From contig JACRKG010000054.1 of NCBI GenBank assembly GCA_016215315.1, positions 1 through 64,000 of the forward strand: a stretch of 64,000 nucleotides of DNA, in the 5' to 3' direction. Shown in pieces: positions 2,625-14,671 of the stretch; positions within the stretch are counted from its first letter, which is position 1; every line of letters starts with the position of its first letter. The notes under the pieces are model-generated. The model saw nothing but the letters and a program-made list of their open reading frames with translations, was not told where the DNA came from and did no database searches. A program made the position numbers and the translations under genes. The stretch comes from Candidatus Woesearchaeota archaeon. Lineage in GTDB: Archaea; Nanobdellota; Nanobdellia; Woesearchaeales; ARS49.

Positions 2625-3641
2625 CTAAATCGGCAAATTATCAATCTCAACGTCTTCGAATACTGGGATTATCTCGGGTTGTCCCAGGCTGGGATGGAGA
2701 CTTCTCATTTCTATCAGTAAATCTTGTAATTCCCGTCTTGATTTTGTCCTAACATGGAATAATAAACTCCATCTTCCAAACAATTTGCTTAACTGTGTGA
2801 TTAATTTATGGTTTCTTGCGTAATTAAACAATTTCTTTTCCGCAAGCCTTCCATAACTAGTAAAATTAAACAATAACAAATAGGCATTGTAGCCCAATCT
2901 TTCACTTCTCAAAAACATTCTGTATCCACCAATAAAACCATTCTTTTCCAAATTACTAATTCTGTTCTGGACAGTTTTGTAACTAACATCACATTTATTT
3001 CCAATTTCTAAACTCGATTTCCTGCAATCATTTCTTAATTCTTTCAAAATCTTCCAATCTAATTCATCTAACTCAACAAGTCCTTTTTCTGAAAAATTTA
3101 TTTTTATTACATCGATGTTTTTTTCATCTAAAAATTTATGCCTAAAAAATTCATGATATGGAACATACAAAGCATCATAATCACTTAATGCTCCAGAAAA
3201 TCTTTCAAACAAGTCATCCAAGAATTTTTCGAATTCATCAAAATTCTTAACAAACAAAACAACAAATAAATCCCATTTGCTGCCAATCAATGCAACCCAA
3301 TAAACATTATCACGTTGCCTTAAATAATCAACAATTTCTTTTCTTTTTAATTCATCAACTCTACCAAAAGTAAACAAAAGACGATACTGGGAATAATTAA
3401 TTTTAGCAAAATTAAAAACGCTGCCGAAACCAGAAACAATATCTCTTTCAATTAATTTCTTAATTCTATAATCAACAACTTGTTGACTAAGCCTTATCTT
3501 CTTAGCAAGAGTTGTTGTAGGAATTCTAGGATCAGCATCTAATTCCTTCAAAATCTTCAAATCTTTAACGTCCAATTTTTTCACTTCGTGAAAAAATTGT
3601 GGTGATGCAGACAAATCTTCATCTTTTATTTCATTGCTCAT
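2625..3641 (-). CDS. tandem Lrp/AsnC-family transcriptional regulator (two HTH_AsnC + RAM-like halves)
   Basis: 338 aa, twice the usual Lrp length. Both halves have an N-terminal HTH segment (LKILKELDADPRIPTTTLAKKIRLSQQVVDYRIKKLIERDIV and WKILKELRNDCRKSSLEIGNKCDVSYKTVQNRISNLEKNGFI). Each is followed by a beta-alpha-beta region typical of the ligand-binding RAM domain. Confidence 0.7.
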   Translation of the reverse strand: MSNEIKDEDLSASPQFFHEVKKLDVKDLKILKELDADPRIPTTTLAKKIRLSQQVVDYRIKKLIERDIVSGFGSVFNFAKINYSQYRLLFTFGRVDELKRKEIVDYLRQRDNVYWVALIGSKWDLFVVLFVKNFDEFEKFLDDLFERFSGALSDYDALYVPYHEFFRHKFLDEKNIDVIKINFSEKGLVELDELDWKILKELRNDCRKSSLEIGNKCDVSYKTVQNRISNLEKNGFIGGYRMFLRSERLGYNAYLLLFNFTSYGRLAEKKLFNYARNHKLITQLSKLFGRWSLLFHVRTKSRRELQDLLIEMRSLHPSLGQPEIIPVFEDVEIDNLPI

Positions 3642-3744
3642 TTCTATAAAGAAAGAGCAAATGGTATATAAATATTTCTAATCTACAAAAATTTCTAAAG
3701 AAATTTTTAACTATTGGGCTATTTTATGATACTGAATCAGTTTG

Positions 3745-3800
3745 AGTTCAGAGTTTGTAAACCAAAAACTACAAACCCCGAACCATGAACTACTACGGAG
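3745..3800. repeat. Heptamer-periodic hairpin repeat element, variant copy
   Basis: Sequence is TTTGAG TTCAGAG TTTGTAA ACC ... CTACAAA CCCCGAA CCATGAA CTAC. It lies between the divergent Lrp and MVP genes and abuts the GGAGG Shine-Dalgarno at 3797-3801. Confidence 0.6.
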
Positions 3801-3810
3801 GCTTGATAAA

Positions 3811-5493
3811 ATGAGTTTAGAACAAATAACAAAAGAAAACAATGTCTTAAGACCTTTCAAAAAAGCAGTATATGCTTTTAGACCTGAGAAAGCATTTTTA
3901 GATGAAGAACAATATGCGCACATAGTAAATAAAAAAACAGGACAAACAATTCTTGTAGAAGGGCCTGCTGAAAGAGTTCTAAGATATGATGAAAGAATTG
4001 TGGGAGATATAGAACAAAAAATAATTTTAACAGAAAACGAATACGCAATAATATCAAACCCAATAAACAACCAAGGAAAAGTACTTTACGGAGAAAGAGA
4101 AGTGAGAAAAGGACCGCAAAAATTCTCATTACGACCGGGAGAAAAAATAGAAAAACAACCAACAAAAGAACATGTACTAACAAAATATGACGCGCTACTG
4201 GTAAAAGCAAGAGAAGACTTTGACAATCGCAAAGCAGGAGACAAATTTTTAGTAAAAGGTCCAACTAAATATGTACCATCAAAACATGAAGACGTTCTAG
4301 AAAGAATAACTGCAATTTCATTATCTGACACTGATGGAATTTATGTGCAAAACAATGACACTGGAGAAGTAAGTTTAGTAAAAGGTCCAACAGACTATTT
4401 CTTACAACCGAATGAGTCATTTTACGAAAAAGAAATAACAAAAGAAGAACTACAAGCATTAGGATTAGAAGCACAAGTGGGCAGAGATGGAGTAAGAGTT
4501 TTAACCAGACAAGCAGCAAACAAATCGTTCCTAGAAGACAGAACAAAAGCTTTAGTACTAGAATTAGAAGACAATGAAATAGTATTCCTTTACGACGGAA
4601 CAGATACACGAATTGAAAAAGGACCAAAAACAACATTCCTAGGACCTTACGAAAGACCAAAAGTACTAAACTTATCAGGCGGAAGACCAATACAACCAAA
4701 TGCACTGAAAGTAGCACTACTAAAATTAGGACCTGACTTTATTTACGACCAAATAAGCGTAAGAACAAAAGACAACGCACAACTATTACTAAACATAACT
4801 TACAAATGGAGATTCAAAACAGAAAATAACAACCACAAAAAACACTTCTCACTAGAAGACTTTGTAGGATACACGGCAGAAACATTATCCTCAGAAATAA
4901 GAGGTGTTGCAGCAAAATATGACTTTGAAGAATTTCATGCAAAAGCATTTGAATACATCAAAGGGCAAGTCTTTGGTCAAGGAAATTCAAAACTATTCGA
5001 TGAAAACAATCTGGAAATTTTTGGCATAGACATAACAGCAATAAACCCTAAAGACCCAAAAATAGCAGAAAAACTACACGACGCAATAAAAAACAACATG
5101 GACATTTATTGCAAAAAAATAACTCTCAAAGCAACACTAGAAAGCGAAAGACAAGAACTGGAAGGAAAAAAACAAATAGAAAAAGAAAGAGGCGAACTAA
5201 TAAAATCAACAAACGAAAACGACAGACTATTATCAACAGAACAAGCAAAGATTCAAGCAGAAGCAGAAAAAATCAGAGCAGAAAGCCAAGCAGCATCAAC
5301 AAAAATAGTTAATGACGCAGAAATCGAATCAGAAAAGAAAAGACTAAACACCGTAATAGGAGAATTAGGAGGATCAAAAGAATACTTAGCATTACAAAGG
5401 GCAAAAGCACTAGAAAACGTAGAAAAATTAATCGTGCCAGAAAACTCCAGAATACTAATAGGAAACAATGGAGGATTTAATGACGACAACTAG
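3811..5493 (+). CDS. major vault protein (MVP) homolog
   Basis: About five MVP-type ~50-aa repeats, e.g. [62 protein letters not shown]. They are followed by the MVP shoulder signature [32 protein letters not shown] and [31 protein letters not shown]. These match animal MVP [32 protein letters not shown] and [27 protein letters not shown]. A C-terminal coiled-coil (cap-helix-like) follows. Start chosen at ATG 3811, preceded by GGAGG with 9-nt spacing. The ORF track extends to 3742. Confidence 0.8.
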   Translation: [560 protein letters not shown]

Positions 5494-6166
5494 AATAGCA
5501 TTAATCGGTGCAATGCCTCAAGAAATAGAAGCATACAAAAAATTAGCCAACAATAATATCTATGTAGGTCTTGTAGGAATAAGCAAACCGATAGCAGCAC
5601 TAAACACAACAAAAATAATTCTGGATTCTAATCCAGATTTTTTAATTTTTACAGGAGTGGCAGGAGCAATAAGTGAAGAGTATAAACTAGGCGACTTAGT
5701 TATTGGAAGTTATGCGATCGATGCCGATCTAGACGTAACAGTGTGGAAAGAATCACCACAAGCACCAAAATACAAACGAGGAGAACAACCATTCACGAGA
5801 CAAAGAGTGTACACATCAGATCAAAGACTTGTCAATTTAGTTTTAGATTACAACAAAAACATAAAACAAGCATTTGTAGCAACAGGTTCTGCATTTTTAG
5901 ACCAAAAAAAGAAAACAGAATTCTTAGAAAAAATTAACCCACAACTATCAGAAACACTTGAAGGAAAACTAAAAACTCCTGACGTTTATGATATGGAAAC
6001 TTCAGCAGTTCTACAAGTAGCAAACCATTTCAATAAACCCGCAATAGTAATTCGCGCAATAAGCGATACATTAGAAGGAAACGCTCCGGAAGACTTTAAC
6101 AAATTCATTAATAACTCTGTTGAGCAGTATGTCGGATTAGTAAAGTATTTATTAAGACAATTATGA
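5468..6166 (+). CDS. mtnN: 5'-methylthioadenosine/S-adenosylhomocysteine nucleosidase (PNP/UDP phosphorylase family)
   Basis: N-terminal RIALIGAMPQEIE motif, FTGVAGA, DMETSAVLQVA and the C-terminal RAISD motif are characteristic of the MtnN/Pfs fold. Overlaps the MVP stop (5493) by 26 nt. An alternative start is ATG 5480. Confidence 0.75.
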   Translation: MEDLMTTTRIALIGAMPQEIEAYKKLANNNIYVGLVGISKPIAALNTTKIILDSNPDFLIFTGVAGAISEEYKLGDLVIGSYAIDADLDVTVWKESPQAPKYKRGEQPFTRQRVYTSDQRLVNLVLDYNKNIKQAFVATGSAFLDQKKKTEFLEKINPQLSETLEGKLKTPDVYDMETSAVLQVANHFNKPAIVIRAISDTLEGNAPEDFNKFINNSVEQYVGLVKYLLRQL

Positions 6167-6176
6167 GGATGATAAA

Positions 6177-6602
6177 ATGACTCAAAAATTTGAAGAAGAC
6201 ATTTATTTCAAAGATGAAGGTAAAACAATGGTTGCGTCAATCACTTACGAAAGAATTCAAACAAAACAAGAAGAAGAACTCTTAAGAGACTACTACCAAC
6301 AACGTTTTTTTGAAAGAACAGGCCGAAAAGTAATGCCTAAAAGGAAAGAAATAGAAGTAAAACCAAAAGCAGGAGAATCAATATCAGAAACAATATATTT
6401 TCAAGTAAGAGAAAACCAACCATTATACGCAGGAATTTATTTCTTACCACAAAAAGCACCTTATGTGATTCCTAAACTAATTGATTGCCTAAACAAGTTC
6501 AAACAAGAAGTAACATCTCACAAAGAAAATAAAGATTGGCCAATAGTAGATTACACAATAAAAGAATTAGAAAAAATAGTTAGAGAACAAGATGACGCAT
6601 GA
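6177..6602 (+). CDS. hypothetical protein (141 aa)
   Basis: Complete ORF, 10 nt after mtnN, same strand. Probably the same operon. Confidence 0.45.
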   Translation: MTQKFEEDIYFKDEGKTMVASITYERIQTKQEEELLRDYYQQRFFERTGRKVMPKRKEIEVKPKAGESISETIYFQVRENQPLYAGIYFLPQKAPYVIPKLIDCLNKFKQEVTSHKENKDWPIVDYTIKELEKIVREQDDA

Positions 6603-6867
6603 AATAAAAAGAGTCATAGATCCAAACAAAACACTAGAAGGAAGAATAAAGATAATTGGCGAAACAGAAGTTGCAAAAGCAATAGGCGCAGAACCAATGA
6701 CTCCCGAAGAATCTGCTGAATTCTTGAGAAAAACACAATACAATTACACAACTAAAGCAGATAATTATGCTAAGCCAACAACGGATAAAAATGAAAAACC
6801 AAATAACACAATCAAAGAATTCAATATGACTCCCTATCATCTTGGTGATCAACCAACGATTTTCTGA
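6592..6867 (+). CDS. hypothetical protein (91 aa)
   Basis: ORF overlapping the upstream stop by 11 nt (translational coupling). No motif. Confidence 0.35.
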   Translation: MTHEIKRVIDPNKTLEGRIKIIGETEVAKAIGAEPMTPEESAEFLRKTQYNYTTKADNYAKPTTDKNEKPNNTIKEFNMTPYHLGDQPTIF

Positions 6868-6928: not shown

Positions 6929-7291
6929 TTGGTACGTTGTGGGCCTAAAATGAAAAGTCAAGTTATTATTAAAGAATTAGAAAAAGAAAATTTGTACTTA
7001 TTGCTAAAAGTAGGTATTGATAGCAATGAGAAAATAGTTCTTGTATCATTACCTTGTGAACATCACATAGACATACTTGAAAATTACACTAGTGGTCTGA
7101 AAAGAAGAGAAGCAAAATATGTCAATGTTGTGGGTGGAGGAATTTTTATTCTTGAAGAAGAAAACAAAAAAATAATTCATTACGCTAATGCAAGCAAGCA
7201 GTTTAAACACCTCAATTGTCCTTCTGAACCAGTTGAAGAACTACTCAAACAAAAATATCCTGGTTATTCTATAGAAACAATATTAGAGTAA
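6929..7291 (+). CDS. hypothetical protein (120 aa)
   Basis: Complete ORF with GTG start. No motif recognised. Confidence 0.4.
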   Translation: MVRCGPKMKSQVIIKELEKENLYLLLKVGIDSNEKIVLVSLPCEHHIDILENYTSGLKRREAKYVNVVGGGIFILEEENKKIIHYANASKQFKHLNCPSEPVEELLKQKYPGYSIETILE

Positions 7292-7356
7292 TAATTAAGT
7301 CACAAAATTAATTCTACGAAAACTTTAAAACTATCTCCATAAACCACAGCAATAAT

Positions 7357-7441
7357 GCCGCCGTGGCACAACCTGGTTAATGCGTAACCCTGGAAAGGTT
7401 ATTTCCGCAAGGATTTCCCGGTTCAAATCCGGGCGGCGGCG
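7357..7441 (+). tRNA. tRNA-Ser (anticodon GGA), 85 nt with long variable arm, CCA not encoded
   Basis: Acceptor GCCGCCG/CGGCGGC. Anticodon stem TAACC/GGTTA with loop CTGGAAA (anticodon GGA). Long variable arm TCC-GCAA-GGA. T-arm CCCGG-TTCAAAT-CCGGG. Discriminator G. A TATA-like TTTAAAAC lies about 30 nt upstream. Confidence 0.75.
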
Positions 7442-7599
7442 ATTTTTAGTTTATTTTTTACCGCTAAAGACTAATAGGTCTTAATTACCACATAATATCA
7501 ATTCATGTTAATTCTGGTTTACATAAAGGAATTTTTTTAGAAATATTTATATATGAGTTAACATAAAAGATGAATTTATGTTAATTGGTGTTAACTAAA

Positions 7600-8844
7600 A
7601 TGGAAAAAGAAATTATTGAAGCAATAGAAGAAACAAATAAGTGGTGGAAAGAAAAAACGACTATAGATTTCAAACCGCGAGAAGTGTATACACGGATAAA
7701 AACATTCTTTGCAACAAGACAAATACTGGCGCTTACTGGACTGCGAAGAGTAGGAAAGACAACAATAATGCTTAAATTTGCACACGAGTACATGCAAACG
7801 GAAAATTCAACAAATGTTTTCTACTTCTCTTTTGATGACTTTAAAGATATTAAAATAAAAAAAACAATTCAAACATACGCTAACTTTCTCAAAAAAGATA
7901 TTGCGAATGGAAAATACCTATTTCTCTTTGACGAAATACAGAAAGTAAAAGGATGGGAGGAGCAAATAAAAAGAATATATGATAATTATCCAAACATAAA
8001 AATTATTATTTCAGGCTCAGAATCTCTTTTTATAAGGAAAAAATCCCGAGAAAGCCTCGCTGGAAGAATTTATGAATTTTTCATCACTCCGTTGACGTTT
8101 AAGGAGTATCTTGTTTTCAAAAAAATACCTATGAATAATATCTTGCTTTATAAAAAAGAAATATTGAGCGCGTTCCAATCATATCTCGTAAATAATGGTT
8201 TTCCTGAGCTGGCAGAAGAGCAAAATAAGGAAATAATAAAGAAATACATCAAAGAAAATATTATAGAAAAAATAGTGTACAAAGATCTTCCACAAATCGT
8301 GTCTATAGAAGACCCAACTAGAATTGAAGATATCTATAAAATAATACTTCACGATCCTGGAGAAATAATAAATATAGAAAGAATGGCGCAGGACCTCAAC
8401 TGTACAAGACAAACAACAGCAAAGTATCTTTCCTATCTTGAAAAAGCATTTCTTATAAAAAAATTGTATAACTATTCAAAAAATGAAAGAAAGACTCAAA
8501 GAAAACTTAAAAAATACTATCCGACAATATTATTGCCTGAACTTTCAGAAAAGCAAGAATTAAAAGGAAAGATATTTGAAGCTAGCATGATACTTAATAT
8601 GAAAATAGAATATTTCTGGAGAGATAAGTACAAAAATGAAGTTGATGCAATACAAACAACTGGTGAAACTCTTCTTCCAATAGAAATAAAATATTCAGAA
8701 ACAAACCACAAACCGCTCAATCTGTTTATAAAAAAATTCAAAACAAAACAAGGAATTATACTTACATATGACACTACAAAAGAAAAAGACGAAAATTCAC
8801 CAATAAAAGTTGTACCGTTCTACGAATTCCTTTTGCAAGAATAG
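7600..8844 (+). CDS. archaeal AAA-superfamily ATPase (AAA_14 / DUF4143 type)
   Basis: Walker A LTGLRRVGKTT. Walker B LFLFDEIQKVKGWEE. A C-terminal DUF4143-like region is present. ATG at 7600 preferred over the TTG at 7585 shown in the ORF track. Confidence 0.75.
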   Translation: MEKEIIEAIEETNKWWKEKTTIDFKPREVYTRIKTFFATRQILALTGLRRVGKTTIMLKFAHEYMQTENSTNVFYFSFDDFKDIKIKKTIQTYANFLKKDIANGKYLFLFDEIQKVKGWEEQIKRIYDNYPNIKIIISGSESLFIRKKSRESLAGRIYEFFITPLTFKEYLVFKKIPMNNILLYKKEILSAFQSYLVNNGFPELAEEQNKEIIKKYIKENIIEKIVYKDLPQIVSIEDPTRIEDIYKIILHDPGEIINIERMAQDLNCTRQTTAKYLSYLEKAFLIKKLYNYSKNERKTQRKLKKYYPTILLPELSEKQELKGKIFEASMILNMKIEYFWRDKYKNEVDAIQTTGETLLPIEIKYSETNHKPLNLFIKKFKTKQGIILTYDTTKEKDENSPIKVVPFYEFLLQE

Positions 8845-9116: not shown

Positions 9117-10046
9117 CTATCCTTCAACGTGTTTAACTTTTATTTCTCCTTTAACTGTGTTTGAGTAATCATAATCTATTGTTATGTCTATTGGTTTTTC
9201 GTAATCTCCTAAGTCTTCTAGTGTTTGAGTGCAACTAATTGCTTTCTTGTTCTCATAAAGTGTTACTGTTCCACCAGCGCTAGTTCCTGATAAATCATTT
9301 AGTCCAGTGCATCTTAATCCTGGAACACCACTATCGACTTTTACGTAAACTTTGTTTTGTTTTCTGTCTCCTTCACAATCACTATTCTTTTCGTATAAAC
9401 TTCCGTCTCCTACGTGTACTAAGTCGAAATAAATTCTTAGTTTATCTTTTCCTTGAACTGATTGCTTAACGTTTTGAACGTGAACTGTTCCTCCAGAATT
9501 CTGTACTGGTTTTACTTCTTCTAATGCACAAATGCCATTTTCTGCAGGAGTCAATAAGTTTTCTCTTACACACATTTTTGTTACTGCTTTTGTTTCGTAT
9601 AAATAACAAACCTCTGCAACCAATGGTAAACTTACAACATTGCCTTGTATTTGTGTTATATGATTTAGTTCTTTAAACTCAACAAATACTGGTTGACTAT
9701 CAATAATATCTCCACTTTCTAAAGTTCTCATTGCTTCTAATCCTTCTTCAGGATGTAATGATAATTGATCTTCACTTTTTCCAAACTGTTGTGGTTGAAC
9801 TCCTTTGAGTTTTACAGTTACTTTTTCTCTCTCAACTTTAGTCTCTCCATTATTCTTTAATTTTACAACAACATCAAAAGGATCATTACCACCGTCATTA
9901 ACTTCAGTTCTTAATTGATCAAATGTAGGAACTATTCCTTGAGTTCCTCCAATGAATGGCTTAATTTTTAGTTCAGTATTTTCTGAAGGAGTACAAGCTA
10001 CTATTAATAGTAACCCAATAATTAATAAAATACCTATTTTTTTCAT
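9117..10046 (-). CDS. secreted lipoprotein, paralog 1 of 3
   Basis: Signal peptide with a lipobox-like IVAC. Shares the block CY-x-Y-x-T-x-A ... C ... P ... C ... G ... V-x-NV with the next two genes. Confidence 0.6.
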   Translation of the reverse strand: MKKIGILLIIGLLLIVACTPSENTELKIKPFIGGTQGIVPTFDQLRTEVNDGGNDPFDVVVKLKNNGETKVEREKVTVKLKGVQPQQFGKSEDQLSLHPEEGLEAMRTLESGDIIDSQPVFVEFKELNHITQIQGNVVSLPLVAEVCYLYETKAVTKMCVRENLLTPAENGICALEEVKPVQNSGGTVHVQNVKQSVQGKDKLRIYFDLVHVGDGSLYEKNSDCEGDRKQNKVYVKVDSGVPGLRCTGLNDLSGTSAGGTVTLYENKKAISCTQTLEDLGDYEKPIDITIDYDYSNTVKGEIKVKHVEG

Positions 10047-10085
10047 GATCTAACATAAACTAATCAGTTACATATATAAAATTTT

Positions 10086-11009
10086 CTATGGTACGTGTAC
10101 TATTTCAACATCTCTGAATGCAGTTGTTCTGTATGCATAATCTAATTTTACTATTAATGGTCTTACTTGCTCGCTTCCTGCGTTCATTGTGTTTACTTCA
10201 CAATTAAAACTTGCACTTCCTCCTTGCAATCTTAAGAAGTTATTATTAATTAGTCCTTTGCATGTTGGTTTTATTGATTCAACACCAACAATAACATCAG
10301 TTACTTCAACAAAGTCTAATTCATTAAAATCAAGCTCTTTTTGTGCGTAAGGACTACATTGAGGCATTGCATCTCTTCTGAATACATCTCCACCACCAAC
10401 ATTACTTACACGAATAGTAAAAACAGTTTTACCTTTTCTTGCATCAACATTAACATTACCAACTGCAATAGGTCCACCTTGAGTTCCTAGACCAACACTT
10501 GCGGGAATACAAGCTTTCTTTTCAACACCCCTAGTAAATGGGTTGGGATCTATGCAAACAATTGTTTCAGCAATAGTTTGGTAGCCATAACAAGCTGTTG
10601 CTAACGTCTTAAAGGGATATTTTGATACAGATAATGGATTTATACTTAAAACAAATTCTACAAAGTCTCTGCTACTTGTTGTTGGCGTGTATGCTGTTTT
10701 TCCCTCGAGATTAGGAATTTGTTTTCCATTAAAAGCACCATCCAAAGGTTGAACAATATTATGATCGAAACCTGACAAGTATATTTTATCCAATTGTTTT
10801 CCTACAGAATAAGCGCCTAAATTTTGTACTTCAATTAATACGCTTGCTCTGCTTTCATCGTCATAAATCTTTAAAGGAGGCTGGTTTGTGACAAAATTAA
10901 TGTAAACTCCCTGACTTCCAGTACGAAAACTAGTAGGCTCTCCAGGCCCGGTTGTAGTACACGAAATAAATATAGCCAAAAAAAGCAGCAATAATATGAT
11001 TTTTCTCAT
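10086..11009 (-). CDS. secreted lipoprotein, paralog 2 of 3
   Basis: Signal peptide MRKIILLLLFLAIFISC. Conserved block ACYGYQTIAETIVCIDPNP. Confidence 0.6.
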   Translation of the reverse strand: MRKIILLLLFLAIFISCTTTGPGEPTSFRTGSQGVYINFVTNQPPLKIYDDESRASVLIEVQNLGAYSVGKQLDKIYLSGFDHNIVQPLDGAFNGKQIPNLEGKTAYTPTTSSRDFVEFVLSINPLSVSKYPFKTLATACYGYQTIAETIVCIDPNPFTRGVEKKACIPASVGLGTQGGPIAVGNVNVDARKGKTVFTIRVSNVGGGDVFRRDAMPQCSPYAQKELDFNELDFVEVTDVIVGVESIKPTCKGLINNNFLRLQGGSASFNCEVNTMNAGSEQVRPLIVKLDYAYRTTAFRDVEIVHVP

Positions 11010-11038
11010 TTTTTTATCCTTATTAGTCCTTCTCCTTT

Positions 11039-11938
11039 TTAATTTTTGCTTTCAATTCGTATTTTTTTAGTTATTGTTTGAGCATAACCATAACTTAATT
11101 TAACTGTTAATGGTGAATTATAACTTCCTTCAACACTAGGAATTATTCTTTGCAACTCACAAAACAACTCATCACTCCCATCTTTTAAATTTAATTTGTT
11201 TTTATTACAAACTAACTTTTCATCACTCAATGAAACTTCTACATCAATCACATTCTGCTGTTCTGTGGGAATACTTTTTCCAGTACAAAAATAATTTACG
11301 TAATCAGAACTTATTATTTCTCCCTTATCTAAATTTTTAATGGTGATGATATATTGAGGTCTTACCCCGTTTTTTTCAATAATCATCCTAGGAACGATAT
11401 TTGTTACACCTATGGGTGCTGCTTGGCCTGCACTGAATGATTGAGGATTTACCGTGCAAACCTTTTTTTCTTTACTAGAAGGATTTGAATCGATGCAAGT
11501 AATAATGTTTGCTTTTGTTTCATAAGGATAACACAAACTAAACGATAAAACACTATTAATTCCTTCCTGACTCCCAACACTTTTAGCTTTTCCTTCAACA
11601 ATTATTTGTGTTTGATCTCCGTAAGGTCTTTCTAAACTCTTACCTTTAAGATTTATCGTGTCTGTTTTCTTATCTACTTTAATGTATTGTTCTTCTATTC
11701 CTAAAGAATAAACTCCATTAACAACATTACTTGCTCCAGTATTTTCTACAAAAATTCTTATTGGAACAGCAGATTCCTCATAAACATAAGCTGGTGGTGC
11801 ATTATTATCAAAATAAAAATTCAATCCTTTGCTTCCCGTAAATTCGCTACCGCTAAAAATATCTGAAGTGCAAGAGAGAACAAATAAAAACAAAATCGTC
11901 AAAAAAACCGATTTTTTCGAAGAAAAAATCCTACTCAT
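11039..11938 (-). CDS. secreted lipoprotein, paralog 3 of 3
   Basis: Signal peptide with lipobox VLSC. Conserved block CYPYETKANIITCIDSNPS. Its start overlaps the upstream stop in ATGA. Confidence 0.6.
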   Translation of the reverse strand: MSRIFSSKKSVFLTILFLFVLSCTSDIFSGSEFTGSKGLNFYFDNNAPPAYVYEESAVPIRIFVENTGASNVVNGVYSLGIEEQYIKVDKKTDTINLKGKSLERPYGDQTQIIVEGKAKSVGSQEGINSVLSFSLCYPYETKANIITCIDSNPSSKEKKVCTVNPQSFSAGQAAPIGVTNIVPRMIIEKNGVRPQYIITIKNLDKGEIISSDYVNYFCTGKSIPTEQQNVIDVEVSLSDEKLVCNKNKLNLKDGSDELFCELQRIIPSVEGSYNSPLTVKLSYGYAQTITKKIRIESKN

Positions 11939-13473
11939 TTTTTCACCACAACTTGTGTTTTTTCGCTTAGTTCATAGTCATAAATGGTTGTTGTTTTGAA
12001 AAAATTTGTCGTATAAGGTTGATCTTTAAGTATTTCTTCTGCATCGCCTTCAACTCTTAAACTAAAAACAACTGGTTTTCCCTCTAAATTTTCTGGCAGA
12101 ACACCGAGTCCTTCACCAGTTATTTCATAAACTTTTTCCAAACTATCATCACAAAGATTTCTATCTTCTTGAGGTAAATCTAAGCAAGTAACTTTTTTAA
12201 TTATCCTTCCTTCACCCTGTAATCCTGAAATTCCAGTTACAGTAAATCCTTTTGGCATTACAAAGAACATTTCTTTTATTGTTTTTAATTGTCCAGACCA
12301 AATATTTGTTAATCCCACATCGAGTTTTAAACTAACTCTACTTTCATCAGCATCAAGACCAACTGGAGGACTTCCAATATCCATTGAAACTCTTAATGGC
12401 CCCGGTGTATAAACCGCAATAAAATCGCTGCTGAAAAAATTATAAACTTTTAAAGGATCTTTTCCTTGTCTTCTTAATTCAAAAAGAGTGTTTTGATTTA
12501 AGAAAAATCCTCTTAAATAAGAGAGAGTTTTGAAATTCTCAATGTTAACATTTAGTTTAATTTTATGACTCCCCAGTTCCAAATTCGGAAAATTACAATC
12601 AATTCTTTCATCAAATAAACGAACAACCTTCCAAGATTCTTTCAATGGATATAATTCTCCATCTATTTTATCGTCTGCTTTACAATCAATTTTTAGCGTA
12701 ACCTCATTATCAACAACATCTGCTTTAATTCTTCCCTCAATACTTACAGGCATTCCTTCAGTGAAAATACTGGTGGGTATTGGTTTTAGTTCTTCAACAA
12801 AAACTCCCACTTTTCGTTTATTCATTTCGTCAACTTTTGCTTTGTGAGGATCAATTGCGTACTCAATTCTTCCCCAAAAAACATCCCACATGAACGTAAA
12901 TTGGTCACCAACAAAATTCCAAGCATCACCTGCATTATCAACCATTACATCCCACACATACTCCATTGCTAAAGGAGGATAAACTCCCGGATAAATTGCA
13001 TTAAATCCTATCGCTTGAATGTCATTAAAAAAGAATAACGAAGTGGCAACTATCCAAAATAAGAACAAAACAAACCCAATCCACCTAGTATATCTCGATC
13101 TTTCTCCACCAAATACTATTCCTAAATAAATTGCCCATGCAGGACTGAAAGCGATAATTAATGCGACAAAAGCAACAGTTAGCTCATTAAAAGGCAAATA
13201 TTGAAAAAGACTATTTGCCATTGGAGCAATAAAAGAAATAAGACTGATTATTCCAAATTCTCTAATGTAATGACTCGAACTATGCCTTTCACTTTCATCA
13301 AGCAATAAAACTCTTGCTAAAAATATTAGTAATAAATAAACAAAAAGAAAAGGAAAATGTAAGGGAATTCCTCCCCTAATTCTTATTCTTATATCAAAAA
13401 GAAATATTACCAACCAAATTAGTATAAATAACCAAGCACTTCCTCTACCTGTATGTCTAGTACCATTCGCCAT
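11935..13473 (-). CDS. integral membrane protein with large extracytoplasmic domain
   Basis: 512 aa. The first ~200 residues contain about five hydrophobic helices. The remainder is hydrophilic and beta-rich. Confidence 0.55.
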   Translation of the reverse strand: MANGTRHTGRGSAWLFILIWLVIFLFDIRIRIRGGIPLHFPFLFVYLLLIFLARVLLLDESERHSSSHYIREFGIISLISFIAPMANSLFQYLPFNELTVAFVALIIAFSPAWAIYLGIVFGGERSRYTRWIGFVLFLFWIVATSLFFFNDIQAIGFNAIYPGVYPPLAMEYVWDVMVDNAGDAWNFVGDQFTFMWDVFWGRIEYAIDPHKAKVDEMNKRKVGVFVEELKPIPTSIFTEGMPVSIEGRIKADVVDNEVTLKIDCKADDKIDGELYPLKESWKVVRLFDERIDCNFPNLELGSHKIKLNVNIENFKTLSYLRGFFLNQNTLFELRRQGKDPLKVYNFFSSDFIAVYTPGPLRVSMDIGSPPVGLDADESRVSLKLDVGLTNIWSGQLKTIKEMFFVMPKGFTVTGISGLQGEGRIIKKVTCLDLPQEDRNLCDDSLEKVYEITGEGLGVLPENLEGKPVVFSLRVEGDAEEILKDQPYTTNFFKTTTIYDYELSEKTQVVVKK

Positions 13474-13477
13474 TTCA

Positions 13478-14671
13478 TCATTCTACTTTAATCCTTAACT
13501 CAACTACATCAACAGGTTCTACCGGAGTTACTTCAATGTAATTCTTTCCAGGCAATAATAAATCTTGAACATCGCTCAAAACCCACTCAAATTTGGTTTC
13601 TTTTTGATTTATGCTCTTAACTTGTCCGTTAATGTTAAGTTCTAATTCTTTTTGTTTTCCGTCATCAACAAAATCAAGCTGCAAAATAATCTTTTTGAAT
13701 TTATCAAGCAAAACATCCGAGTATAATTGATTATTAATATTGAAGTAAGCTAAGAAAGGCTTTGTTTCTTTCAGCTTCAACAACAATTGTGATTTGCTAA
13801 TATCATAAACTCCTTTAGTTCCTTCAAAGCTTAAAACATTTCTTCCTGTTTTCAAATAATCTTGATAAACGTTTAATTCTAATATATCATCGCATACTGG
13901 AACTGCAGAGTATAATTGTTTGCTATTCAAGGAAACAGTAAGATACCCTGTATTTTTTACATCACAACTAATAAAAAATCTTAATTTTCCTTCCTTCAAT
14001 TCTTGTAATTCTGATTCCTCTAAAGAAAAAGGATTATGACTTATTAGTGCTTCTTTTTCTTCAACAGTAGCAATAATTTTTAAATCACTAATTTGGTATT
14101 CTTGACTCTCAAAAAATCCTCCTTCAACATTAAAAGTCAACTGATTTTTTTCAGCATCCAACATTCCAGGATCAATACTTAATAAATTTGATTGCTGCGC
14201 TCTACCTCTAAAAATTTCGGCACCATTCAATCCGACAACTAAAATTCCATTCTTAGTTGGCGCTTGAAAGCTAATATGAACTTTTGTTAATCCTTCTTTA
14301 GGAACAGAAAAGGGAATTATTTTTCTTAATTCAGAAAACCAACCATGGTAGATTTGAAACGTGTTGACTTCTCGCAATAAAATATCTGGTTTAGTTTCAG
14401 TTAAAACAAAATTAGGAAAATCAATAGTTTTCTCATCATTATTTACAACACTCAAATGGCCAACATTTTCACGAAGCAAAAATTCTCCCACTAAAGGTTT
14501 AACACCAGAACTGCCAGGAGTTCCTCCTGAAGCATCCTCTCCTAACAACTCAATTCTTACATTTGGAGGTAAAAAAACTATGTAGAATATCAATAAAACT
14601 GTGATAAGCATTATTAGTGTTGCAGCACCAGCAGCATCACGTCTTTTACCTGAACTTTTCTCTTCACCCAT
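13478..14671 (-). CDS. membrane-anchored extracellular protein (first gene of the lipoprotein operon)
   Basis: 397 aa with a single N-terminal TM (ATLIMLITVLLIFYIVFLPP) followed by a hydrophilic domain. Lies 4 nt upstream of the next gene. Confidence 0.5.
   Translation of the reverse strand: MGEEKSSGKRRDAAGAATLIMLITVLLIFYIVFLPPNVRIELLGEDASGGTPGSSGVKPLVGEFLLRENVGHLSVVNNDEKTIDFPNFVLTETKPDILLREVNTFQIYHGWFSELRKIIPFSVPKEGLTKVHISFQAPTKNGILVVGLNGAEIFRGRAQQSNLLSIDPGMLDAEKNQLTFNVEGGFFESQEYQISDLKIIATVEEKEALISHNPFSLEESELQELKEGKLRFFISCDVKNTGYLTVSLNSKQLYSAVPVCDDILELNVYQDYLKTGRNVLSFEGTKGVYDISKSQLLLKLKETKPFLAYFNINNQLYSDVLLDKFKKIILQLDFVDDGKQKELELNINGQVKSINQKETKFEWVLSDVQDLLLPGKNYIEVTPVEPVDVVELRIKVE

What the first reader, a model, noticed from the sequence alone, without database searches (positions are those of the whole stretch)
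3811..5493. Major vault protein homolog in an archaeal genome, in an operon with an MTA/SAH nucleosidase
The 560-aa protein has MVP-type repeats and a shoulder/cap-helix region, with extended collinear matches to animal MVP (LIRGPLEYVPSAKVEVVE vs [29 protein letters not shown]...[11 protein letters not shown] vs [11 protein letters not shown]...[11 protein letters not shown]). Vaults are regarded as eukaryotic organelles with few prokaryotic homologs. A compact (about 5-repeat) archaeal version could form a smaller nanocompartment. The mtnN gene overlaps its stop by 26 nt, suggesting co-expression and perhaps a cargo relationship.
Basis: partly seen in the sequence, partly recalled or inferred. 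Interest (0 to 1): 0.75.

Follow-up and report, generated by a model that had tools for sequence, protein, structure and literature searches.

The report
Compact vault protein beside a nucleosidase gene
A tiny-celled (DPANN) archaeon encodes a real, shortened relative of the protein that builds eukaryotic vault particles, and its gene is usually paired with a nucleosidase gene in related microbes, which gives a testable clue to what vault-like cages do.

Summary
Window 3811-5493 (+) encodes a 560-aa protein that passes the Pfam cut-offs for MVP_shoulder and four MVP-repeat models. It matches rat MVP at E=1e-68, and its model matches vault structures at Foldseek E=1e-41; SPFH cages score only about 1e-8. 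It has five repeats, a shoulder, a ~105-residue cap helix and no membrane segment. The flanking genes are archaeal, and NCBI holds the identical protein from a Candidatus Woesearchaeota MAG.

Archaeal MVPs are no longer new. Five-repeat Asgard MVPs, a pan-archaeal MVP fold, Borg MVPs and phage MVPs were all reported in 2023-2026. I rate this a new member of a known kind.

What this work adds:
- The protein belongs to a DPANN-specific clade (100% bootstrap), separate from CPR/bacterial, Asgard-like and long eukaryote-type clades.
- An MtnN-type nucleosidase gene with intact catalytic residues lies beside the MVP gene in 19 of about 28 evaluable loci, in both the DPANN and CPR clades. In DPANN the two genes often overlap by 4-14 nt.
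- A divergent double-wHTH Lrp/AsnC regulator and its promoter motif are conserved.
- A virus-borne subclade exists, one member lying next to a T4-type capsid gene.

Cage assembly and any cargo relationship remain inference. No targeting extension was found, and the basic residues of the human NAD+/ADP pocket are not kept.

The parts
2625..3641 (-). Divergently transcribed 338-aa regulator with two AsnC/Lrp-type winged-helix domains and a RAM (ligand-binding) domain
   Evidence: Pfam HTH_AsnC-type 5e-23 (two stretches), HTH_24, AsnC_trans_reg 8e-9. Homologues (41-54% identity) sit in the same divergent position upstream of MVP or PNP-MVP in L002, L003, L011, L021 and L022, and upstream of a PNP without MVP in L042.
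3642..3810 (.). Shared control region. It holds a TATA-like box at 3665-3674, a conserved motif TTTCTAATCTACAAAAA at 3675-3691, a perfect 10-2-10 palindrome AAAAATTTCTaaAGAAATTTTT at 3687-3708, and GGAGG at 3797-3801
   Evidence: The TATA box plus TTTCTAATYTACAAAAA recurs in the equivalent intergenic regions of L002, L011, L021 and L022, and in weaker form in L003. A palindrome of this arm length arose in 9 of 5000 shuffles. Its role as promoter or operator is inferred, not shown.
3811..5493 (+). Compact major vault protein homologue, 560 aa, soluble
   Evidence: Pfam MVP_shoulder, Vault, Vault_2, Vault_3 and Vault_4 all above their cut-offs. Rat MVP 1.3e-68. AF2 model pLDDT 81.6. Foldseek top hits are human, rabbit and rat vaults at 3e-41 to 2.5e-34. 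Maximum Kyte-Doolittle 19-residue window is 0.78, so no TM segment.
3889..4728 (+). Five MVP beta-repeats (about aa 27-69, 71-123, 127-171, 176-245, 249-305), collinear with roughly R5/R6 to R9 of rat MVP. The fourth carries a low-confidence insertion, aa ~218-245
   Evidence: Strand pattern in the AF2 model. Pfam repeat hits at aa 81-115, 121-156, 168-211 and 251-306. The phmmer alignment pairs query 49-306 with rat MVP 253-519, and query 34-174 also aligns with R1-R3.
4729..5055 (+). Shoulder (SPFH-fold) domain, aa 307-415, with G307-P308-D309-F310 and W333 invariant in the 31-sequence alignment
   Evidence: MVP_shoulder 2.7e-28 over profile positions 1-118 of 118; Band_7 only 6e-6. Invariant columns. 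D309, F310 and W333 correspond to human D521, F522 and W545.
5056..5367 (+). Cap helix: one continuous predicted helix, aa 416-519, 39% charged residues
   Evidence: AF2 secondary structure H416-519. It aligns with the rat MVP cap helix from residue 647. Composition.
5425..5463 (+). Conserved C-terminal motif [13 protein letters not shown] (aa 539-551), possibly the cap-ring or closure strand
   Evidence: Family consensus is KLVVPTDSKLVLG. The resemblance to the eukaryotic cap-ring stretch STLITNGNAPINLF is by eye only. HMMER alignments to eukaryotic MVPs stop near profile position 527, and the AF2 monomer is disordered here.
5480..6166 (+). MtnN-type (PNP_UDP_1) adenosyl-nucleoside hydrolase, 228 aa. 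It overlaps the MVP 3' end by 14 nt (26 nt from the alternative ATG at 5468), and its Shine-Dalgarno GGAGG at 5470-5474 lies inside the MVP gene
   Evidence: PNP_UDP_1 2e-29. NCBIfam MtnN models score 1.3e-31 and 2.2e-20 but fall below the equivalog cut-offs. Best PDB hits are all MTA/SAH nucleosidases, 6e-18. Equivalents of E12, M173, E174, R193, S196 and D197 are kept. A homologue is adjacent to MVP in 19 loci.
6177..6867 (+). Two small co-directional ORFs (141 aa at 6177-6602; 91 aa at 6592-6867) of unknown function. They may belong to the same transcript
   Evidence: No Pfam or NCBIfam hit. The 141-aa protein has a homologue in the same position only in L014 (2e-11) and a weak PADLOC PDC-S26 hit (1e-5). 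They are not conserved across the family, so membership in the module is doubtful.

Best explanation
Window 3811-5493 encodes a genuine, compact member of the major vault protein family in a DPANN (Woesearchaeota) archaeon.

Anatomy (shown). The protein has a short N-terminal helix, five MVP beta-repeats, an SPFH-type shoulder, a single ~105-residue cap helix and a conserved C-terminal strand motif. It has no membrane anchor.

Assembly (inferred). Every structurally characterised protein with a shoulder followed by a long helix packs side by side into a closed cup or barrel: vaults, HflK/C, flotillin, prohibitin, stomatin, erlin and QmcA. This protein therefore most likely forms a soluble homo-oligomeric 'mini-vault' cage. 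Copy number is unknown, and so is whether two cups pair at the N-terminal rim.

Expression (sequence shown, function inferred). The gene shares a control region with a divergent double-wHTH Lrp/AsnC-type regulator. It is probably translationally coupled to the next gene, because the MVP stop lies inside that gene and that gene's Shine-Dalgarno sequence lies inside MVP.

Partner (shown). The next gene encodes an MtnN-type N-ribosyl hydrolase with an intact catalytic set, so it probably releases adenine from SAH, MTA or 5'-deoxyadenosine. The MVP-nucleosidase pairing recurs in two deeply separated MVP clades (DPANN and CPR/other bacteria).

Function (proposed). The two proteins probably act together, with the cage scaffolding, enclosing or feeding the nucleosidase, or handling its adenosyl substrate. 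Purine salvage in organisms that are generally thought unable to make purines de novo (background knowledge, not tested here) is one possible setting.

My confidence in each step:
- MVP homologue: about 0.97.
- Forms a cage: about 0.65.
- Functionally coupled to the nucleosidase: about 0.5.
- The nucleosidase is physically enclosed: about 0.15.
For: Identity:
- Pfam MVP_shoulder and the Vault, Vault_2, Vault_3 and Vault_4 models all score above their cut-offs.
- phmmer gives rat MVP at 1.3e-68, collinear over 466 residues.
- The AF2 model has pLDDT 81.6 and the expected domain order.
- Foldseek top 12 hits are all vault structures (3e-41 to 2.5e-34), while SPFH cages score 2.6e-8 or worse.
- No TM segment.

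Archaeal host:
- Pelota/eRF1-family, archaeal PheRS and TrmB genes are in the window.
- The identical protein is deposited from a Woesearchaeota MAG.

Lineage:
- NJ tree of 161 sequences and 435 columns: DPANN clade 100% bootstrap, CPR/bacterial clade 100%, all short forms 89% apart from the long eukaryote-type proteins.

Operon:
- The overlap is 14 nt, with GGAGG inside the MVP gene.
- Overlaps are 4 nt in L001, L002 and L014; the longest-ORF call in L019 overlaps by 32 nt, while the deposited gene calls there overlap by 14 nt.

Conserved pairing:
- A PNP_UDP_1 gene lies on the same strand within 3 kb in 7 of 8 evaluable cellular DPANN-clade loci and 12 of 17 CPR/bacterial loci. It is usually immediately adjacent.

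Nucleosidase:
- Catalytic residues are conserved in all linked nucleosidases.

Regulation:
- The regulator and a promoter-region motif are conserved in 5-6 loci.

Literature context:
- Eukaryotic vaults house NAD+-cleaving and NAD+-consuming enzymes next to an adenine-nucleotide pocket in the MVP shoulder (PMC12280208; bioRxiv 10.64898/2026.05.01.722283).
Against: - No assembly was modelled or observed. The tools gave monomer predictions only.
- The DPANN-type nucleosidase subfamily also occurs without MVP (L040, L041, L042). In its tree, MVP-linked and unlinked members are interleaved. It therefore looks like the lineage's ordinary MtnN rather than a dedicated partner.
- Linked nucleosidases have no consistent N- or C-terminal extension that could act as a targeting signal.
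- The PNPs of the DPANN and CPR clades are not demonstrably sister groups (support 7%).
- About a third of loci lack the nucleosidase, including all three virus-like relatives.
- The basic residues that hold the diphosphate in the human MVP pocket are replaced: K506 by I, R511 by L, K573 by E.
- In one locus (L019) the nucleosidase is followed by a Cys/Met-metabolism PLP enzyme. CPR loci carry SAM-dependent enzymes nearby, RlmN and TrmD. This fits plain housekeeping clustering equally well.
Confidence: 0.6

Rival explanations
1. The MVP cage and the nucleosidase are functionally independent. MVP has merely inserted, repeatedly or once with later spread, into a housekeeping regulator-mtnN unit, and the adjacency reflects shared regulation or co-transfer.
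For: The regulator-PNP pair exists without MVP in L042. DPANN-type PNPs without MVP occur in L040 and L041. Linked and unlinked PNPs are interleaved in the tree. No targeting extension was found. Neighbours are housekeeping genes: Cys_Met_Meta_PP and an aminoacyl-tRNA synthetase in L019, and S16, RlmN and TrmD in CPR loci.
Against: The pairing is kept in two MVP clades that share only 40-46% identity, while every other neighbour differs between them. In DPANN the genes overlap by 4-14 nt. If the PNPs were recruited independently in the two clades, as allows, that argues for selection on the pairing and not for chance.
Confidence: 0.3
2. The protein works like a membrane-facing SPFH cup and not a free two-halved vault. 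It would sit as a single cup against the membrane or another surface and delimit a microdomain.
For: The shoulder also passes the Band_7 cut-off (26.8 vs 23.6 bits). Structural matches to HflK/C, erlin, prohibitin, flotillin and stomatin cages reach 1e-8 to 1e-5. The C-terminal motif resembles the closure motifs of SPFH proteins, which is my recollection and was not tested. An Odin locus places tandem MVPs next to a flotillin. A 2026 paper's abstract reports vault particles associated with membranes in situ (PMC13100048, abstract seen).
Against: There is no TM helix or obvious lipid anchor. No NfeD-type partner was found among the neighbours. Five MVP-type repeats replace the membrane-proximal SPFH1 region. 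Similarity to MVP exceeds similarity to any SPFH cage by more than 30 orders of magnitude.
Confidence: 0.15
3. It is an anti-virus or abortive-infection module, in which the PNP-family enzyme depletes adenine nucleotides and MVP acts as sensor or scaffold.
For: PNP-family nucleosidases serve as effectors in some defence systems (established knowledge; weak PADLOC 'PN-superfamily effector' hit 4.7e-5). Nearby genes hit candidate defence models: PDC-S01 at 2.8e-61 for 7585-8844 and PDC-S26 at 1e-5 for 6177-6602. Close MVP relatives are carried by viruses.
Against: MVP has no PADLOC hit. The PNP resembles housekeeping MtnN far more than defence effectors (1e-31 vs 5e-5). CPR loci lie among ribosomal and tRNA-modification genes, not in defence islands. 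No sensor or signalling gene is conserved across loci.
Confidence: 0.05
4. It is an ordinary SPFH/band-7 protein miscalled as MVP, or a contaminating or recently transferred eukaryotic MVP gene.
For: The shoulder is an SPFH fold, and some sources label relatives 'SPFH domain-containing protein' or 'HflC'.
Against: Four MVP-repeat models and MVP_shoulder score above their cut-offs. Rat MVP scores 1e-68, against 0.27 for QmcA. The flanking genes are archaeal. Identity to eukaryotic MVPs is only 30-33%. The protein sits in a 100%-supported DPANN clade well apart from the long eukaryote-type proteins.
Confidence: 0.01

Closest known systems
Eukaryotic major vault protein / vault particle (rat and human; e.g. 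PDB 4V60, 7PKZ, 9BW5)
   Same: Same domain order: MVP repeats, SPFH-type shoulder, long cap helix, C-terminal tail. It is collinear with rat MVP residues 253-750 at 1e-68 and gives Foldseek 3e-41. The GPDF motif and the Trp of the shoulder pocket are invariant.
   Different: It has five repeats instead of nine, and a cap helix of about 105 residues instead of about 155. Identity is only 30-33%. No vault RNA, TEP1/TROVE or PARP4 counterpart is present in the window. The basic residues of the human NAD+/ADP pocket are not kept. Assembly has not been shown.
Asgard archaeal MVP homologues (Kostlbacher et al., Nat Microbiol 2026, PMC12962969)
   Same: These are also archaeal and compact, and are described as having five repeats, a shoulder and a cap helix, with a tentative closed-cup multimer model. 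The window protein is 37-39% identical to Odin and Hodarchaeales proteins.
   Different: The window protein belongs to a separate DPANN clade (100% bootstrap). Its grouping with the Asgard-like clade has only 58% support. The Odin locus examined has tandem MVP paralogues and no nucleosidase. DPANN and CPR are not mentioned in that paper's main text.
Compact MVPs of CPR and other bacteria (Uhrbacteria, Parcubacteria, Doudnabacteria, Anaerolineales, Eremiobacterota MAGs)
   Same: About 550 aa, the same architecture, 40-46% identity. In 12 of 17 evaluable loci they are also paired with an MtnN-type nucleosidase.
   Different: They form a distinct clade (100% bootstrap). The genes are separated by 44-242 nt and do not overlap. 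The divergent regulator is TrmB-type and not Lrp/AsnC-type.
Long bacterial MVP homologues (Myxococcales, Cytophagales, Oscillatoriales; Daly 2013 as cited in PMC12962969; Sokolskyi 2019, bioRxiv 872010)
   Same: They are prokaryotic MVP-family proteins.
   Different: Those are reported as more than 50% identical to eukaryotic MVP. I infer, without having tested it, that they group with the long (~850 aa) clade. The window protein is short and falls outside that clade.
SPFH cages (HflK/C, QmcA, stomatin, prohibitin, flotillin, erlin)
   Same: Shared shoulder fold followed by a long helix. These all form closed cup-shaped oligomers, which is the basis for predicting a cage here.
   Different: Those proteins are membrane-anchored and lack MVP repeats. 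Similarity is marginal at sequence level (QmcA E=0.27). No NfeD partner is present.
Single-repeat 'MVP repeat + SPFH' archaeal proteins (PLoS Comput Biol 2026, PMC13607799) and virus or Borg MVPs (bioRxiv 10.1101/2023.11.10.566534; 10.1101/2024.11.05.622173)
   Same: They show that the MVP fold is spread across archaea, including DPANN, and across mobile elements. Here a virus-borne subclade is nested inside the DPANN clade.
   Different: The pan-archaeal examples are 317-396 aa with one repeat, whereas this protein has five repeats. None of those reports mentions a nucleosidase partner in the passages I read. The one paper found containing 'vault', 'MVP' and 'nucleosidase' together is an unrelated leukaemia study.
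MtnN (5'-methylthioadenosine/S-adenosylhomocysteine nucleosidase), for the partner gene
   Same: PNP_UDP_1 fold, best PDB hits all MtnN (6e-18), catalytic residues kept, and NCBI names it MtnN.
   Different: It scores below the NCBIfam equivalog cut-offs (109.9 vs 169; 73.2 vs 73.8). It lacks about 18 residues near the N-terminus and has two insertions relative to the aligned PDB MtnN chain (alignment). Its substrate is untested.

Membership tests
Major vault protein (MVP) family | Tandem MVP repeat domains (Pfam Vault, Vault_2, Vault_3, Vault_4) | tested here: met
   All four models score above their gathering cut-offs (41.6, 23.8, 51.5 and 24.6 bits). The AF2 model shows five beta-repeats.
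Major vault protein (MVP) family | MVP shoulder domain (PF11978) | tested here: met
   98.8 bits against a cut-off of 25, covering profile positions 1-118 of 118.
Major vault protein (MVP) family | Long cap helix following the shoulder | tested here: met
   A continuous predicted helix at aa 416-519, aligned to the rat cap helix from residue 647. This is a prediction, not an experimental structure.
Major vault protein (MVP) family | Cap-ring region at the C-terminus | tested here: inconclusive
   A conserved motif [13 protein letters not shown] resembles eukaryotic STLITNGNAPINLF by eye. HMMER alignments to eukaryotic MVPs end before it, and the AF2 monomer is disordered there.
Vault particle (the organelle) | Nine repeats per chain and a 78-mer, two-halved barrel | tested here: not met
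   Only five repeats in 560 aa. Oligomeric state could not be tested with these tools.
Vault particle (the organelle) | Minor components: vault RNA, TEP1 (TROVE/NACHT/WD40), PARP4 | tested here: not met
   Rfam at gathering threshold finds only two tRNAs in the 64 kb window. No TROVE, NACHT or PARP hit was found among the neighbours scanned. A related virus-like locus (L012) does carry PARP-like and zf-PARP genes.
Vault particle (the organelle) | Adenine-nucleotide pocket in the shoulder (human R504, K506, R507, H509, R511, D521, F522, W545, K573) | tested here: inconclusive
   Equivalents of D521, F522 and W545 are invariant, and R504 is kept as K or R. K506 is replaced by I, R511 by L, H509 by N and K573 by E. 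Residue list from PMC12280208.
SPFH / band-7 membrane scaffolds | SPFH domain | tested here: met
   Band_7 26.8 bits against a cut-off of 23.6, much weaker than MVP_shoulder over the same residues.
SPFH / band-7 membrane scaffolds | N-terminal membrane anchor, often with an NfeD operon partner | tested here: not met
   Maximum 19-residue hydropathy is 0.78. No NfeD hit was found in the neighbouring ORFs.
MtnN (MTA/SAH nucleosidase), partner gene 5480-6166 | PNP_UDP_1 fold with the catalytic Glu, Met-Glu, Arg and Ser-Asp set | tested here: met
   PNP_UDP_1 2e-29. The residues are conserved in all 17 linked and 20 reference sequences. The E. coli residue numbering is from memory.
MtnN (MTA/SAH nucleosidase), partner gene 5480-6166 | Score above the NCBIfam equivalog cut-off | tested here: not met
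   NF004079 scores 109.9 against 169, and TIGR01704 scores 73.2 against 73.8. It is a divergent subfamily.
MtnN (MTA/SAH nucleosidase), partner gene 5480-6166 | Hydrolysis of MTA, SAH or 5'-deoxyadenosine | not testable with these tools
   This needs an enzyme assay.
Cargo-loaded protein nanocompartment (encapsulin-like logic) | Cargo gene adjacent to the shell gene and carrying a terminal targeting peptide | tested here: inconclusive
   Adjacency is met in 19 loci. There is no consistent terminal extension on linked versus unlinked nucleosidases. Internal docking surfaces cannot be excluded.

The most novel reading that the evidence does not exclude
The compact MVP cage and the MtnN-type nucleosidase form an ancient 'enzyme-in-a-vault' module. 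In this reading, prokaryotic mini-vaults dock or enclose an adenine-releasing N-glycosidase, as eukaryotic vaults hold the NAD+-cleaving TEP1 and the NAD+-consuming PARP4 beside the shoulder pocket. Handling adenosyl metabolites would then be the ancestral job of vaults. The module would have been spread among DPANN archaea, CPR bacteria and large viruses by horizontal transfer.
Probability: 0.15. Interest if true: 0.85.

Novelty: new member of a known kind. Interest (0 to 1): 0.5.

Why it matters
What vaults do has been an open question for a long time. Work from 2025-2026 places NAD+-consuming enzymes and bound ADP-ribose at the MVP shoulder in human vaults.

A two-gene prokaryotic cassette that pairs a minimal MVP with an adenosyl-nucleoside hydrolase, conserved across DPANN and CPR lineages, offers a small system for testing whether MVP cages partner with nucleoside or nucleotide enzymes. 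The cassette (about 2.4 kb) should be easy to express.

The results also show that compact MVPs are not specific to Asgard archaea. They form at least four prokaryotic clades and one virus-borne subclade. This weakens the use of MVP as an Asgard-to-eukaryote signature.

If the pairing turns out to be mere operon hitch-hiking, the finding reduces to one more archaeal MVP homologue.

Tried and rejected
- PADLOC scan: no hit for MVP, and only marginal hits for the nucleosidase and the 141-aa ORF. A known defence system is not supported.
- Rfam scan of the whole window for vault RNA or other ncRNA: only two tRNAs.
- Conservation of the human NAD+/ADP pocket: the core D, F and W are kept, but the basic residues are not. 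I dropped the claim that the archaeal protein binds NAD+ or ADP in the same way.
- Search for a targeting extension on MVP-linked nucleosidases: none.
- Test for a conserved four-gene operon: the small downstream ORFs (141 and 91 aa) are shared only with L014.
- Test for co-inheritance of the nucleosidase with MVP between the DPANN and CPR clades: unresolved, with 7% support at the deep node.
- Sigma-70 promoter and intrinsic-terminator scans: not above shuffled expectation (11 vs 12.6; 3 vs 2.4), and not appropriate for an archaeon anyway.
- The palindrome at 3687-3708 as a conserved operator: it is not conserved in the other loci. Only the TATA box and the adjacent motif are.
- Foldseek against BFVD found only generic SPFH proteins.
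- The afdb50 library was unavailable.
- INPHARED tblastn found only distant hits (23-26% identity) in 462-735 kb uncultured phages.
- The genome contigs and metagenome scans returned only 11 and 18 loci because few peptide patterns were used, so the neighbourhood statistics rest on about 33 distinct loci.
- The phylogenies are neighbour-joining trees on Kimura-corrected distances. No maximum-likelihood program was available, so deep branching order should be treated as provisional.
Full report
**1. Observation**

The ORF at 3811-5493 (+) is real. It has an ATG start, encodes 560 aa and ends in TAG. GGAGG lies 9 nt upstream of the ATG.

Pfam-A gives these scores, all above their gathering cut-offs:

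| Model | Bits | Cut-off |
|---|---|---|
| MVP_shoulder | 98.8 | 25 |
| Vault_3 | 51.5 | 28.8 |
| Vault | 41.6 | 27 |
| Vault_4 | 24.6 | 22.9 |
| Vault_2 | 23.8 | 23.6 |

The generic Band_7 model scores only 26.8 bits on the same shoulder residues. Against all PDB sequences the best hits are rat, human and rabbit MVP (1.3e-68 to 1e-66). The alignment is collinear, pairing query 49-514 with MVP 253-750. The first non-MVP SPFH protein, QmcA, has E=0.27.

**2. Anatomy**

I built an AlphaFold2 model on a 31-sequence alignment. Mean pLDDT is 81.6 and pTM is 0.60. The model shows, in order:
- a short helix, aa 14-23;
- five beta-repeats at about aa 27-69, 71-123, 127-171, 176-245 and 249-305, the fourth with a low-confidence insertion;
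- an alpha/beta shoulder, aa 307-415;
- one continuous helix, aa 416-519;
- a short helix, aa 522-533;
- a disordered tail.

Foldseek against the PDB returns twelve vault structures first (3e-41 to 2.5e-34). SPFH cages (HflK/C, erlin, prohibitin, flotillin, stomatin, QmcA) appear only at 2.6e-8 and worse. The protein has no hydrophobic segment: the maximum 19-residue hydropathy is 0.78.

The family consensus ends in a conserved motif, KLVVPTDSKLVLG, which reads [13 protein letters not shown] here at aa 539-551. By eye it resembles the eukaryotic cap-ring stretch STLITNGNAPINLF, but HMMER does not align that region.

**3. Host and lineage**

The same window carries a Pelota/eRF1-family gene, archaeal-type PheRS alpha and beta genes and a TrmB regulator. 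The identical 560-aa protein is deposited as a hypothetical protein of a Candidatus Woesearchaeota MAG, on a 142-kb contig.

Homologues fall into bands of identity:
- 53-64%: Nanoarchaeota/Woesearchaeota-type contigs;
- 40-46%: CPR bacteria (Uhrbacteria, Parcubacteria, Doudnabacteria) and a few other bacterial MAGs;
- 37-39%: Odinarchaeota and Hodarchaeales;
- 30-33%: eukaryotic MVPs.

A profile search of 1.84 billion cluster representatives found 2221 hits at E<=1e-3 and only 393 at E<=1e-30, so the family is rare.

I built a neighbour-joining tree from 161 sequences and 435 columns with 100 bootstraps. Support values are:
- DPANN clade including the window protein: 100%;
- CPR/bacterial clade: 100%;
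- Asgard-containing clade: 98% for the core and 90% for the wider group;
- all short forms apart from the long (~850 aa) eukaryote-type proteins: 89%;
- DPANN plus Asgard-like clade: 58%.

The gene is therefore neither a contaminant nor a recent import from eukaryotes. The deep branching order is provisional, because no maximum-likelihood program was available.

**4. Neighbourhood**

*The downstream gene.* The next ORF hits PNP_UDP_1 at 2e-29. NCBIfam MtnN models hit at 1.3e-31 and 2.2e-20 but fall below their equivalog cut-offs. All strong PDB hits are MTA/SAH or aminofutalosine nucleosidases.

NCBI's call begins at ATG 5480 and gives 228 aa. That start is preceded by GGAGG at 5470-5474 and gives a 14-nt overlap.

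*Conservation of the pairing.* I collected 39 related loci by MVP similarity, about 33 of them distinct. A nucleosidase of this family lies on the same strand within 3 kb in 19 of them:

| Group | Loci with the nucleosidase | Evaluable loci |
|---|---|---|
| Cellular DPANN clade (window, L001, L002, L003, L014, L019, L022) | 7 | 8 |
| CPR/bacterial clade (L004, L005, L006, L009, L010, L026, L028, L029, L031, L032, L033, L034) | 12 | 17 |

- In the DPANN loci the two genes overlap by 4 nt (L001, L002, L014) or by 14 nt (window; L019 by its deposited gene calls).
- In the CPR loci they are 44-242 nt apart in most cases.
- Apart from MVP itself, no other gene family was found in loci of both the DPANN and the CPR clade.
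- For a gene present once or twice per roughly 1000-gene genome, adjacency in two thirds of loci cannot be chance. This is my inference.
- Equivalents of the catalytic residues E12, M173-E174, R193 and S196-D197 are conserved in every linked copy. The E. coli numbering is from memory.

*The regulator.* A divergent 338-aa regulator with two AsnC/Lrp-type wHTH domains recurs upstream in L002, L003, L011, L021 and L022. A TATA-like box and the motif TTTCTAATYTACAAAAA recur with it in the intergenic region. CPR loci carry a divergent TrmB-type regulator in the same position.

**5. Limits on the functional link**

- The DPANN-type nucleosidase subfamily also occurs without MVP, in L040 and L041. 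In L042 it keeps the same divergent regulator but has no MVP.
- In a nucleosidase tree the DPANN-type clade is supported at 90-96%, but MVP-linked and unlinked members are interleaved. The relation of the DPANN-type, CPR-type and generic MtnN groups is unresolved.
- Linked copies have no consistent terminal extension.
- Neighbours such as Cys_Met_Meta_PP (L019) and RlmN and TrmD (CPR loci) fit an ordinary SAM-cycle housekeeping role.

The enzyme therefore looks like the lineage's normal MtnN. The open question is why MVP keeps settling beside it.

**6. Link to recent vault biology**

Human MVP binds NAD+, ADP and ADP-ribose in a pocket between adjacent shoulders (PMC12280208). TEP1 is reported as an active NADase inside the vault (bioRxiv 10.64898/2026.05.01.722283).

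I mapped the published pocket residues onto the alignment:
- D521, F522 and W545 are invariant in all 16 DPANN-clade sequences (D309, F310 and W333 here);
- R504 is kept as K or R;
- K506 is replaced by I or V, R511 by L, H509 by G or N, K573 by E, and P565 by E or D.

The phosphate-binding character of the human pocket is thus not preserved. I do not claim nucleotide binding for this protein.

**7. Most likely mechanism**

*Shown.* This is a compact, soluble MVP-family protein in an archaeon. Its gene overlaps the next gene, which encodes a catalytically intact MtnN-type nucleosidase. The pairing is conserved across two clades.

*Inferred.*
- The protein forms a homo-oligomeric cup or barrel. 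The basis is that every characterised protein with a shoulder followed by a long helix does so (about 0.65).
- The cage and the nucleosidase work together (about 0.5).
- The nucleosidase is physically enclosed (about 0.15).

*Rivals.*
- Operon hitch-hiking without a functional link (0.3).
- A membrane-facing SPFH-like cup (0.15).
- A defence module (0.05).
- A miscalled SPFH protein or a contaminant (0.01).

**8. Comparison with what is known, and novelty**

- Five-repeat Asgard MVPs with a tentative decamer model were published in 2026 (PMC12962969).
- A pan-archaeal survey reported the MVP fold in all major archaeal groups, but as proteins of 317-396 aa with one repeat (PMC13607799).
- Borg MVPs and gut-phage MVPs have been noted.
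- Long bacterial homologues were described earlier.

An archaeal MVP is therefore no longer surprising, and I rate this a new member of a known kind. In the searchable library I found no paper linking MVP to DPANN, CPR or a nucleosidase partner. Those elements are the new content of this report.

**9. Seen in passing**

- A subclade nested inside the DPANN MVP clade appears to be virus-borne. L039, an IMG/VR contig, carries a T4 Gp23-type major capsid gene (9e-78) two genes upstream of an MVP. That MVP is 55% identical to the window protein and 65-82% identical to P0015, P0010 and P0018.
- P0018 sits on 300-600 kb contigs, flanked by a PARP-catalytic-like gene (28.1 bits, cut-off 26.7), an SNF2 helicase and a zf-PARP protein.
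- None of these virus-like loci carries the nucleosidase.

Noticed in passing
L039:1035-6494 (IMG/VR UViG_3300033147_000338): A T4 Gp23-type major capsid gene (Pfam 9e-78) lies two genes upstream of an MVP that is 55% identical to the window protein and 82%, 69% and 65% identical to P0015, P0010 and P0018. This looks like a virus-borne subclade nested in the DPANN MVP clade. No nucleosidase is adjacent.
   Followed up: partly
L012:1334-9718 (also L013, L023; contigs of 300-600 kb, GC about 47%): The MVP gene is flanked by a PARP-catalytic-like gene (249 aa; 28.1 bits vs cut-off 26.7), an SNF2-type helicase and a zf-PARP protein (369 aa). This is reminiscent of the PARP4-vault link in vertebrates. 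Whether the contig is a virus, a plasmid or a cell is not settled.
   Followed up: partly
window 6929-7291 (+): A 120-aa ORF hits the Janus/Ocnus family (phosphohistidine phosphatase PHPT1-like; 29 bits vs cut-off 23). From background knowledge this family is mostly eukaryotic, which I did not check here. The true start is probably the internal ATG, a few codons into the ORF.
   Followed up: no
window 22025-55899 (+): Four consecutive giant ORFs (1362, 5214, 3184 and 1267 aa) occupy about 34 kb and have almost no Pfam matches. The exceptions are a Kazal-like stretch, and SpoIIE/PP2C and protein-kinase stretches inside the 3184-aa ORF.
   Followed up: partly
window 9117-14671 (-): Five consecutive same-strand ORFs (309, 307, 299, 512 and 397 aa) have no Pfam hit at E<=1e-4.
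   Followed up: no
window 7585-8844 (+), after tRNA-Ser at 7356-7442: An AAA_14 + DUF4143 ATPase has a strong match to the PADLOC candidate defence family PDC-S01 (2.8e-61). A related ATPase also lies near the MVP in L019.
   Followed up: no
window 3687-3708: A perfect 10-2-10 palindrome, AAAAATTTCTaaAGAAATTTTT, lies in the regulator-MVP intergenic region. A palindrome of this arm length arose in 9 of 5000 shuffles. It is not conserved in related loci, unlike the adjacent TATA box and the TTTCTAATYTACAAAAA motif.
   Followed up: yes
L017:6001-10833 (Odinarchaeota MAG): Two tandem MVP paralogues (479 and 491 aa) lie next to a flotillin-type SPFH gene on the opposite strand. No nucleosidase is present.
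   Followed up: no
L020:3893-7530 (320-kb metagenome contig): Two divergently oriented short MVPs (501 and 509 aa) sit on a contig whose other genes look eukaryotic (Nup88, F-box, acyl-CoA oxidase, HSBP1). Compact MVPs may therefore also exist in some eukaryote or giant virus.
   Followed up: no
L042:3943-5699: An archaeal locus (eIF2-alpha and L44e nearby) has the same double-wHTH Lrp/AsnC regulator divergent from a DPANN-type nucleosidase but no MVP. The regulator-nucleosidase unit thus exists without MVP, and may be the older arrangement.
   Followed up: partly
P0002 (793 aa) and P0012 (752 aa), DPANN-clade members: These are longer relatives with 5-6 matched stretches, which points to extra N-terminal repeats. 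Repeat number therefore varies within the clade.
   Followed up: no
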